Virus record (IMG/VR): IMGVR_UViG_3300024996_000139
Coordinates: 1-42,597 of that record
DNA length: 42,597 nt
Direction: 5' to 3' (one strand)
DNA from: a virus
Taxonomy: Duplodnaviria > Caudoviricetes
Shown here: piece after piece, positions 103 through 1,737 of the stretch
How the letters are laid out: every line of letters starts with the position of its first letter
Position numbering within the stretch: position 1 is the first letter of the stretch
Made by a program: the position numbers and the translations under genes
Notes under the pieces: generated by a model
Told to the model about the DNA's origin: nothing
What the model saw: the letters and a program-made list of their open reading frames with translations, nothing else
Database searches by the model: none

Positions 103-179
103 CGCGGGGTGGAGCAGCCCGGTAGCTCGTCAGGCTCATAACCTGAAGGTCGTAGGTTCAAATCCTGCCCCCGCAACCA
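103..179 (+). tRNA. tRNA-Met(CAT), initiator type; probable attL
   Basis: CGCGGGGTGGAGCAG...TCAGG-CTCATAA-CCTGA...GGTTCAAATCC...CCCCGCAACCA; C1-A72 mismatch typical of fMet; CAT anticodon 137-139; encoded CCA 177-179. Confidence 0.97.
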
Positions 180-1737
180 ACGATCCCACAGACTTCCCGG
201 CGCTTGCGCCGAGAAGTCCGGCAAGGTTGCCGTAGAGATCGATTTCCACCGGCTTGTACGGGCCAGCCGGTATAATCACTGCCTTTTCGACGAGTAGACG
301 GATTTCGTGCATGATTGTGCGGCGATCACGCTCGTTTTCGGTTTTTGCGATTGCGGTGCGCAGATCCATGATCCTTTGCCGGTACTCTTGCGCCACGGTC
401 GGCTTGAGCTCGATCGAGACCGGCGCATCGGCAGCCTGAATATCCTCGGCAATGCTGTCGCGCTCGGCCTCGAGCGCGATCAGGCGTGCCACGATGGATT
501 TCGGCACATCGCCTCCCTCAATGACAGTCATGATCGCCGCGATCTTGCGCTCGATCTCGCCCAGCCTCGTCCGATCCTTCGCGCGACCGGCATCGCCGGC
601 GCGTTGCAACTCCGCGAATGCGCGACGGAACTCATGGACATAGTCTGCGAGCAGGTCCTGATCGCAGAGTTGCTCCTGGAGCCCGTCGAGGATCATGGCC
701 TCGACCACGTGCAGGGCGATCGTGCGCTTGTTGCTGCAGGTGCCCGTCTCACGCATGCGCGAGCAGACCAGGAAGCGGCCGCGCTGGCGATCGGAGCCGC
801 CGACGATGTAGCTCGAGCCGCAGCAGCCGCATTTCAGGAGGCCGGCGAAGAGCGTCCGCGCGGCGGGAGCGTGGCTGCCGTGAGCGCTGCCCCTAGCTTT
901 GCGCCTCTGTGCTGCCTGCCAGATATCCTCTTCGACAAGCCTTAGGTGCGGCGCATCCACCTCGATCCATTGCGCGCGAGGGTTAGGACGCGAAACGCGC
1001 TTGCCGGTGTCGGGATCTTTCTCGAAACGCTGCCGATTCCAGGTCAGCTTGCCGGCATACAGGCTGTTGCAGATGATGCCGTTGGCGCGCACGCGTGAAC
1101 CGTTGATGGTCGAGCCGTTCCAATGGCCGCCGCGCGGTCCTGGAATTCCTTGGGCATTCAATGCGACTGCTATATCGCGAGGCGCGTCGCCGGCAATATA
1201 GCGCTCGAAGATCCAGCGGACGGTGTCGGCTTCCTCCGGAATGATGTCGAGCTCGCCCGGCGCGCCCGGCCGGGCGGCATAGCCATAGGATCTGCCGCCA
1301 GCACTGCGGCCGGAGCGCGCCACGCCTTGCAGGCCACGCCGCGTCTTTGCCGCGAGATCCTTGAGATAGAGTGCGCCGAGAAGGCCCTTGATGCCGACAT
1401 GGATATCCTCCGCGCGGCCGTCAGCGACGGTGCGGATCTCGATGTGGGCAAACCGCAGGCGCTTGTAGATGCCCGCGAGATCCTCCTGGTCGCGCGACAG
1501 GCGATCGAGGCTCTCGCAGACGACGACATCGAATTGGCCGTCCCGTGCGTCTTGCATGAGTCTGCCAAGGCCAAGCCGCCCGATGGTCGATGATCCGGAG
1601 AGCGCGCGATCTTCGTATCGGCGAGTGACCGTGAGCCCCTCGCGCGCGCAATAGTCTTCACAGACCGCCACCTGGTCCTCGATCGAGCGGTCGTTCTGCC
1701 GGTCGGACGAATAGCGGCTATAGATGACGGCGCGCAT
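136..1737 (-). CDS. Large serine recombinase (phage integrase)
   Basis: N-terminal YSRYSS catalytic motif, DRLSR, recombinase domain, CGCCG...C...C zinc ribbon, coiled coil; start taken at MRAVIY (1737). Confidence 0.95.
   Translation of the reverse strand: MRAVIYSRYSSDRQNDRSIEDQVAVCEDYCAREGLTVTRRYEDRALSGSSTIGRLGLGRLMQDARDGQFDVVVCESLDRLSRDQEDLAGIYKRLRFAHIEIRTVADGRAEDIHVGIKGLLGALYLKDLAAKTRRGLQGVARSGRSAGGRSYGYAARPGAPGELDIIPEEADTVRWIFERYIAGDAPRDIAVALNAQGIPGPRGGHWNGSTINGSRVRANGIICNSLYAGKLTWNRQRFEKDPDTGKRVSRPNPRAQWIEVDAPHLRLVEEDIWQAAQRRKARGSAHGSHAPAARTLFAGLLKCGCCGSSYIVGGSDRQRGRFLVCSRMRETGTCSNKRTIALHVVEAMILDGLQEQLCDQDLLADYVHEFRRAFAELQRAGDAGRAKDRTRLGEIERKIAAIMTVIEGGDVPKSIVARLIALEAERDSIAEDIQAADAPVSIELKPTVAQEYRQRIMDLRTAIAKTENERDRRTIMHEIRLLVEKAVIIPAGPYKPVEIDLYGNLAGLLGASAGKSVGSLVAGAGFEPTTFRL

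What the first reader, a model, noticed from the sequence alone, without database searches (positions are those of the whole stretch)
103..180. Serine integrase whose C-terminus and stop codon are encoded by the antisense of its target tRNA
Seen: the last 14 residues (LVAGAGFEPTTFRL) come from the reverse strand of the tRNA-fMet 3' half, and the TGA stop (136-138) lies in the anticodon loop at the centre of the TCAGG/CCTGA dyad. Known: serine integrases cut at a 2-bp core between inverted half-sites, and tRNA targets are more typical of tyrosine integrases. Inference: if crossover is in the anticodon loop, excision could replace the stop codon, so integrated and circular states would encode integrases with different C-termini, a built-in directionality or stability switch. 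The integrase mRNA is also antisense to an initiator tRNA.
Basis: partly seen in the sequence, partly recalled or inferred. Interest (0 to 1): 0.72.

Follow-up and report, generated by a model that had tools for sequence, protein, structure and literature searches.

The report
Integrase gene spanning its own attP
A 44-kb prophage sits at the 3' tip of the host's initiator-tRNA gene with its recombination site inside the end of its own serine-integrase gene, so the inserted copy ends in 9 residues read off the back of the tRNA while the excised phage would end in a different, conserved 19-residue tail that likely tunes the enzyme; the layout has published precedents and its function is untested.

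Summary
Observation confirmed; interpretation half right. The large serine integrase (136-1737, minus strand, 533 aa) runs into tRNA-fMet (103-179) and stops at 136-138. The crossover is not in the anticodon loop. attR lies beyond the window (C5:45210-45222) and repeats only window 167-179. The rebuilt attP is symmetric about 168-169 (20 of 28 pairs). The TCAGG/CCTGA 'dyad' is the anticodon stem. The predicted outcome still holds: excision would replace the last 9 tRNA-derived residues with a 19-residue phage tail (543 aa). The layout is family-wide in Alphaproteobacteria: 82 of 120 top homologs end in tRNA-Met antisense tails, and 19 carry phage tails that diverge at the same point. Phage tails look selected (frame, length, hydrophobicity; 22 of 51 tail groups end in Ala), but this element's tail ends RTKR. 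In 47 of 63 fMet-type loci the linker before the att site also holds a terminator-like hairpin on the tRNA strand. No excised junction was seen and function is untested. Precedents in print: Mx8 Int and Dehalococcoides DsiB. This scan reported the same design before on other genomes, including a tRNA-Met case.

The parts
103..179 (+). tRNA-Met(CAT), initiator type, last gene of the rRNA operon; restored at attL
   Evidence: ARAGORN; Rfam (23S, 5S, tRNA in L004); cloverleaf with base 1 unpaired
136..1737 (-). Large serine integrase, 533 aa (integrated form)
   Evidence: ORF; Pfam Resolvase, Recombinase, Zn_ribbon_recom; PHROG 95; AF2 model
136..138 (-). Host-derived TGA stop (antisense of U33-C34-A35)
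   Evidence: sequence
139..167 (-). Host (B-arm) DNA encoding the tRNA-antisense tail GFEPTTFRL plus part of the preceding Ala codon; predicted disordered
   Evidence: pLDDT below 50 for residues 510-533
167..179 (+). 13-bp direct repeat (tRNA 3' end) shared with attR. attR lies outside the window at C5:45210-45222, 1.8 kb past its end; the left flank of attR encodes the 19-aa phage tail and stop on the minus strand (C5:45211-45149) and its right flank holds the displaced host terminator (C5:45257-45279)
   Evidence: 13-mer occurs exactly twice in the genome; terminator scan of L179
168..169 (.). Inferred crossover dinucleotide (CC)
   Evidence: attP symmetry is highest here, 20 of 28 pairs against 4-12 at the 11 other offsets tested; same centre in 19 of 23 natural attP-type loci
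170..197 (.). P' arm of attP (symmetric at positions 1-6 and 16-25 from the centre); also encodes integrase residues about 515-523
191..218 (+). Hairpin just downstream of the tRNA, inside the int linker; no U-tract here, candidate stop for rRNA-operon read-through
   Evidence: z = -3.64, 0 of 200 shuffles as stable for 180-240; not called by the terminator scan; family pattern
1718..1876 (-). 52-aa ORF overlapping the int start; possible directionality factor, untested
   Evidence: no PHROG match
168..42597 (.). Prophage (primase, terminase, portal, head/protease, tape measure, tail proteins); continues past the window to attR, 44,260 bp from attL
   Evidence: PHROG; distance

Best explanation
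The integrase gene of this 44-kb prophage runs across its own attachment site at the tRNA-fMet 3' end, so the integrated gene ends in 9 tRNA-antisense residues, and excision would restore a 19-residue phage-encoded tail that likely forms a working part of the enzyme. Shown from sequence: attL at 167-179, attR at C5:45210-45222, an intact tRNA, and the two reading frames. Inferred: crossover at 168-169 by the usual serine-integrase 2-bp exchange. Inferred and untested: the free-phage form (543 aa) carries out integration and its hydrophobic tail docks on the enzyme as a short strand; the lysogen form (533 aa, disordered filler tail) is the only one available for excision and is likely less active or tuned differently, which would stabilise the prophage as in Mx8. 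The linker before the att site likely doubles as a replacement terminator for the rRNA operon. My odds are about 0.93 for the swap and about 0.55 for a functional effect of it.
For: The 13-mer occurs exactly twice in the genome, and only 1 of 94,621 C5 positions (attR itself) reaches 20 of 28 symmetric pairs with the P' arm. A host-type terminator lies 35 bp right of attR. An exact attR core was found in 14 of 29 other elements with a usable attL, 18-77 kb away. Natural attP-type records, including phage RR1-A, leave the tRNA sequence after the same base and are most symmetric about it in 19 of 23 cases. The att motif is in frame in 145 of 155 distinct loci although the linker is 15-59 aa long. 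In-frame tails are 12-35 aa long in 33 of 37 groups with DNA, against 21 of 74 off-frame readings, and hydrophobic fraction at tail positions 9-16 is 0.46 against 0.35. The window's tail groups with P0014, P0048, P0053 and P0102 through a PP-aliphatic motif that lies beyond the att arm and differs by conservative changes. AF2 gives the P0014 tail a strand at 541-544, while the window's tRNA tail has no structure.
Against: No excised or empty-site junction was seen in the contigs of 4 runs laid on attL, and no relative of the same genus is held to show attB. The strand in the P0014 model is low confidence (block pLDDT about 57), and the folded domains end near residue 510 in both forms, so the enzyme may not need either tail. 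Tails are diverse: 65 tails fall into 51 groups. The loci are related and were ranked with a query that includes the tRNA tail, which favours in-frame hits, so the p-values overstate. No exact attR core was found within the fetched DNA for 15 of 29 elements. Ten of 155 loci are out of frame. The direction of any effect is inferred from Mx8, an unrelated enzyme.
Confidence: 0.58

Rival explanations
1. Stability switch: the free-phage tail is a C-terminal protease tag (ClpXP type, ending Ala) that keeps integrase low during infection, and integration removes it, as attP does for the BPs repressor.
For: 22 of 51 tail groups end in Ala and 9 of 51 in Ala-Ala. Baselines are 6% Ala inside tails, 20% and 4% among 1,238 long G000 ORFs, and 4 of 74 off-frame readings. 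The host tmRNA tag ends VAA. Precedent in PMC3694055 (passages).
Against: This element's tail ends RTKR, and of its group of five only P0048 ends in Ala. Among the 15 tails rebuilt from attR only 4 end in Ala, close to the baseline. The ORF baseline is unannotated. That C-terminal Ala-Ala is a ClpXP signal in Alphaproteobacteria is recalled, not tested.
Confidence: 0.17
2. Neutral compaction: the gene end is packed over attP and the replacement terminator, both tails are dispensable filler, and directionality comes from an ordinary RDF such as the 52-aa upstream ORF.
For: Folded domains end near residue 510. Tails vary widely. Some relatives are out of frame or end before any att motif (L003). 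The first 8 tail codons are constrained by DNA symmetry, not protein.
Against: It does not explain the frame kept across linkers of 15-59 aa, the narrow tail length, the hydrophobic motif beyond the att arm, or the terminal-Ala excess.
Confidence: 0.22
3. One reading: crossover in the anticodon loop between TCAGG/CCTGA half-sites.
For: Several relatives keep only the 3' half of the tRNA from the anticodon loop on (L115, L124, L129, L141, L145, L149), so that loop is used by some element.
Against: That break lies on the host side of the tRNA in those loci. The genome has no second copy of 130-160 longer than 12 bases. The repeat at the prophage end covers 167-179 only.
Confidence: 0.02

Closest known systems
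Dehalococcoides ssrA-specific integrase DsiB (McMurdie et al. 2011, PMC3146451; passages and section 11 read)
   Same: A serine recombinase of about 540 aa whose gene always overlaps attL at its 3' end and takes its stop from outside the island. The authors propose it may be fully functional only on the circle or behind another island.
   Different: DsiB is a CcrB homolog with a partner recombinase (DsiA), targets ssrA on mobilizable islands, and has divergent C-termini. Here it is a single phage integrase with a compact symmetric attP, two tRNA-Met targets, a fixed frame and selected-looking phage tails.
Myxophage Mx8 integrase (review PMC6070905, passages; primary papers not read)
   Same: attP lies inside int, integration creates a new 3' end, and the altered enzyme is described as a switch that controls excision rate.
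   Different: Mx8 Int is a tyrosine recombinase (recalled) and its effect was measured. Here the enzyme is a serine integrase, only 9 against 19 residues outside the folded domains are exchanged, and no effect has been measured.
Canonical phage large serine integrases (phiC31, Bxb1, Listeria LI; Foldseek matches)
   Same: Domain order, catalytic Ser, zinc ribbon, coiled coil, and an attP symmetric about a 2-bp core.
   Different: In these, attP lies beside the gene and the protein is the same in both states (recalled).
Integration-dependent immunity of mycobacteriophage BPs (PMC3694055, passages)
   Same: attP inside a gene; integration changes a C-terminus.
   Different: There the gene is the repressor and the lost part is a proven degradation tag. 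Here it is the integrase, and this element's tail has no terminal Ala.
Paracoccus prophage vB_PamS_Pami6 (PMC6536676, passages)
   Same: An alphaproteobacterial prophage with a serine recombinase integrated at tRNA-Met.
   Different: The passages read say nothing of an int/att overlap; its kinship to this family was not tested.

Membership tests
Large serine integrase (phage LSR) | N-terminal catalytic domain with Ser nucleophile | tested here: met
   PF00239 residues 3-144; Y6, R8, S10 invariant in 86 of 86 aligned homologs
Large serine integrase (phage LSR) | Recombinase domain, four-Cys zinc ribbon, coiled coil | tested here: met
   PF07508, PF13408; C303, C306, C325, C334 invariant; helices 360-407 and 413-436; top Foldseek hits for the P0014 model are serine integrases
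Large serine integrase (phage LSR) | Short attP symmetric about a central dinucleotide; attL and attR flank the element | tested here: met
Large serine integrase (phage LSR) | Separate recombination directionality factor | not tested
   52-aa upstream ORF has no PHROG match; no binding test was run on it
Large serine integrase (phage LSR) | Recombination activity | not testable with these tools
   no excision junction in the contigs laid on attL
Mx8-type integrase | attP inside int; integration gives a new 3' end | tested here: met
   (in silico); natural records of both forms
Mx8-type integrase | Tyrosine recombinase (recalled) | tested here: not met
   serine family
Mx8-type integrase | The two forms differ in activity | not testable with these tools
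   needs assays
DsiB ssrA-island integrases | [quoted passage not shown] | tested here: met
DsiB ssrA-island integrases | Targets ssrA | tested here: not met
   target is tRNA-fMet; tmRNA lies on C16
DsiB ssrA-island integrases | Adjacent small serine recombinase DsiA | tested here: not met
   the three ORFs upstream of int are a 52-aa unknown, a 132-aa unknown (phrog_464) and an SSB
Integration-dependent immunity (BPs) | attP inside the repressor gene | tested here: not met
   attP is inside int
Integration-dependent immunity (BPs) | Integration removes a C-terminal degradation tag | tested here: inconclusive
   terminal Ala in 22 of 51 family tail groups but not in this element

The most novel reading that the evidence does not exclude
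A large alphaproteobacterial phage family uses recombination itself to set serine-integrase directionality. The phage tail docks on the enzyme and licenses attP x attB, while the tRNA-filler form made only by the prophage performs attL x attR, so no RDF is needed. The same 3' stretch also supplies the tRNA end and the rRNA-operon terminator.
Probability: 0.12. Interest if true: 0.82.

Novelty: new variant of a known kind. Interest (0 to 1): 0.5.

Why it matters
Serine integrases are mined from genomes as editing tools. For this family the database protein is usually the integrated form with a tRNA-filler tail (82 of 120 top hits), not the form the phage uses to integrate, so screens may be testing the wrong protein. 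If the tail matters, it is a regulatory layer on a widely used enzyme class and is cheap to test with two constructs. The short 13-bp repeat also explains why these att sites are easy to miss.

Tried and rejected
Anticodon-loop crossover: rejected. The second tRNA-Met on C5 (77534-77608, 82% alike, opposite strand) as attR: rejected for wrong orientation, and it lies in another phage-like region. Single-sequence viral scan found nothing; the alignment scan worked. Sequencing runs: no RNA holder listed. Contigs of 4 runs on 1-1200 showed no joint, and a piece spans 154-1200 unbroken in X1 and X2, which may be the source sample; contigs drop rare variants. The attR side was not examined in reads, so excision remains open. 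Complex prediction of the P0014 body with its own tail gave no answer (0.30 against a mark of 0.32) and is not used either way. No promoter-like or terminator-like site was called in 1-2400. No other genome of the genus is held, so no empty attB was seen. A sequence look-up in earlier findings returned nothing. PMC8627217 and PMC12429752 (passages) do not describe the overlap. Rows dropped: G012 (no attL match); L175 (spurious motif) before the tail count; open-ended ORFs; 11 loci without the att motif.

Full report
Observation. The window begins at the end of an rRNA operon: 23S, 5S and tRNA-Met(CAT) at 103-179. The tRNA folds with base 1 unpaired, which with its rrn position marks it as the initiator. 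An ORF on the minus strand, 533 aa from ATG 1737, ends LVAGAGFEPTTFRL with TGA at 136-138. It has resolvase, recombinase and zinc-ribbon domains. The rest of the window is a tailed prophage: 11 of 14 long ORFs scanned hit PHROGs, among them terminase, portal, head, tape measure and tail proteins. The host is alphaproteobacterial by the named homologs. The TCAGG/CCTGA dyad is only the anticodon stem.

Where the crossover is. BLAST of window 1-330 found no second copy of the tRNA 3' half. A k-mer search found window 167-179 repeated at C5:45210-45222 in the same orientation, 1.8 kb past the window end. This 13-mer occurs exactly twice in the genome. Pairing the left flank of that site with the right flank of the tRNA gives 20 of 28 symmetric pairs about the CC at 168-169, in blocks at positions 1-6 and 16-25. 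The 11 other offsets tested give 4-12, and only 1 of 94,621 positions on C5, the site itself, reaches 20. A terminator-like hairpin with a T run lies 35 bp to its right, as expected for the displaced end of the rRNA operon. Seven centres in the anticodon loop give at most 11 of 28, and window 130-160 has no exact match elsewhere longer than 12 bases.

Consequence for the protein. Reading int through the rebuilt attP keeps LVAGA and then gives RIMPTHRLPPMVIRLRTKR and a stop (543 aa) in place of GFEPTTFRL (533 aa). The stop at 136-138 is host DNA and is lost.

Family. A protein search gave 3,122 hits at E <= 1e-50 among 7,996 candidates. Of the 120 listed, 82 end in a tRNA-Met antisense tail, 19 in an attP-type tail and 19 otherwise. 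The counts are 55, 12 and 8 (5 open) of 80 viral loci and 47, 16 and 10 (7 open) of 80 genome loci. Two targets appear: the initiator tRNA (VAGxGFEPxTFRL) and a second tRNA-Met (VAEEGxEPPTxGL; its elongator identity is recalled). Both tails stop at the anticodon-loop TCA. Phage RR1-A and Mae-JY30 carry attP-type tails. In 28 attP-type loci the first base after the Gly/Glu codon still matches the tRNA (27 G, 1 A) and the tRNA pattern is lost over the following bases. Symmetry peaks at that dinucleotide in 19 of 23 natural attP-type loci tested. I fetched flanks of 30 other elements: 29 had a usable attL, 14 showed an exact 12-base attR core 18-77 kb away whose identity extends 0-4 bases toward the anticodon, and 15 showed none within the DNA fetched. 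G071 has a second, more distant copy extending 15 bases.

Is the phage tail selected? The att motif is in frame with int in 145 of 155 distinct loci although the linker before it is 15-59 aa long. From 65 tails (50 natural, 15 rebuilt) I formed 51 groups. In the 37 groups with DNA, in-frame length is 12-35 aa in 33, against 21 of 74 off-frame readings, and hydrophobic fraction at positions 9-16 is 0.46 against 0.35. A terminal Ala occurs in 22 of 51 groups, against 20% of 1,238 long G000 ORFs and 4 of 74 off-frame readings. Several points cut against this. The loci are kin. They were ranked with a query that contains the tRNA tail. Natural tails were capped in length by my pattern. Only 4 of the 15 rebuilt tails end in Ala, and this element's ends RTKR. 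The first 8 tail codons are fixed by DNA symmetry. Beyond them the window's PPMVIRL matches PPLIVTI, PPLIVRV and PPLVVRV in P0014, P0053 and P0102, which points to protein-level constraint.

Structure. AF2 of the integrated form is confident to about residue 510 and unstructured over 510-533. In P0014, a natural attP-type homolog 55% identical to the window protein, residues 541-544 form a strand at block pLDDT about 57. This is weak support. The model's best solved matches are serine integrases.

A second job for the linker. In 47 of 63 distinct initiator-type attL loci, the first 110 bases after the tRNA CCA, inside int, hold a hairpin of -10 kcal/mol or better followed by a T run. Controls give 10 of 63 further into int and 5 of 63 on the other strand; the second-tRNA class gives 5 of 41. 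Since the initiator tRNA ends the rRNA operon here, the phage likely replaces the terminator it displaces. This window has a strong hairpin at 191-218 (z = -3.64 for 180-240) without a T run, so for this element the point is uncertain.

Mechanism. Shown: the two att sites, the intact tRNA and the two frames. Inferred: standard 2-bp serine exchange at 168-169. Inferred and untested: the infecting phage can make only the 543-aa form and the prophage only the 533-aa form, so each direction starts with a different protein, and loss of the tail likely lowers or retunes activity in the lysogen (0.58). Rivals are neutral packing (0.22) and a protease tag (0.17; better for relatives than for this element). 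No excised junction was seen in contigs of 4 runs laid on attL, so activity of this prophage is not shown.

Prior knowledge. DsiB of Dehalococcoides is a serine recombinase whose gene overlaps attL, with the same hypothesis in print (PMC3146451, passages and section 11). Mx8 is the measured precedent (review PMC6070905, passages). BPs shows a tag removed by integration (PMC3694055, passages). A serine-recombinase prophage at tRNA-Met is listed for Paracoccus (PMC6536676, passages). Eight paper searches (listings only apart from the six papers opened) found no description of the swap in this tRNA-Met family. The library lacks most subscription papers, and I opened no supplements; att-site tables of LSR-mining and TIGER papers may already hold these sites. 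The scan's own notes list eight earlier findings of this design on other genomes, one at tRNA-Met; they gave me the DsiB lead.

Verdict. Real, family-wide, and a variant of a known kind. The tail swap is well supported, the anticodon-loop model is wrong, and the regulatory role is plausible but unproven. Interest 0.5.

Noticed in passing
G000:C5 about 61,000-94,821 (beyond the window): A second phage-like region, Mu-like by ORF content (recalled from the translations), carries its own tRNA-Met at 77534-77608, 82% alike to the host initiator tRNA.
   Followed up: no
G000:C5 about 51,000-58,700: ORFs that look like a type I-C cas operon (cas3, cas5, cas8c, cas7, cas4, cas1; labels recalled, not scanned) lie 6 kb right of attR. 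No array was looked for.
   Followed up: no
G000:C5 43977-44663 (minus strand), inside the prophage right end: A 228-aa ORF starting MCGRF, likely an SOS-response-associated peptidase (recalled motif), with two unknown ORFs next to attR.
   Followed up: no
L042, L084, L152, L164, L168, G075:C9: The int linker contains an extra VAG-type att remnant, and G075 has two attR-like cores 8 kb apart: signs of repeated or tandem insertion at the same tRNA end.
   Followed up: partly
L115, L124, L129, L131, L141, L145, L149, L155, L157, L161: tRNA identity stops just past the anticodon loop on the host side, so another element has probably split the same tRNA there while the int stop codon survives.
   Followed up: no
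L009, L051, L054, L065, L089, L091, L078, L122, L150, L151: Ten loci reach the att motif out of frame and stop earlier or later; several share a GSGRGT/GSGGG ending and may be a subclade without the swap.
   Followed up: partly
L001 (PP438422.1, Microcystis phage Mae-JY30): Its integrase is 44% identical and carries an att motif of the alphaproteobacterial tRNA-Met type, which sits oddly with the stated cyanobacterial host.
   Followed up: no
window 39-68: A GC-rich hairpin with a short T run between 5S rRNA and the tRNA (z = -2.74 for 30-75); it could attenuate read-through before the tRNA.
   Followed up: no
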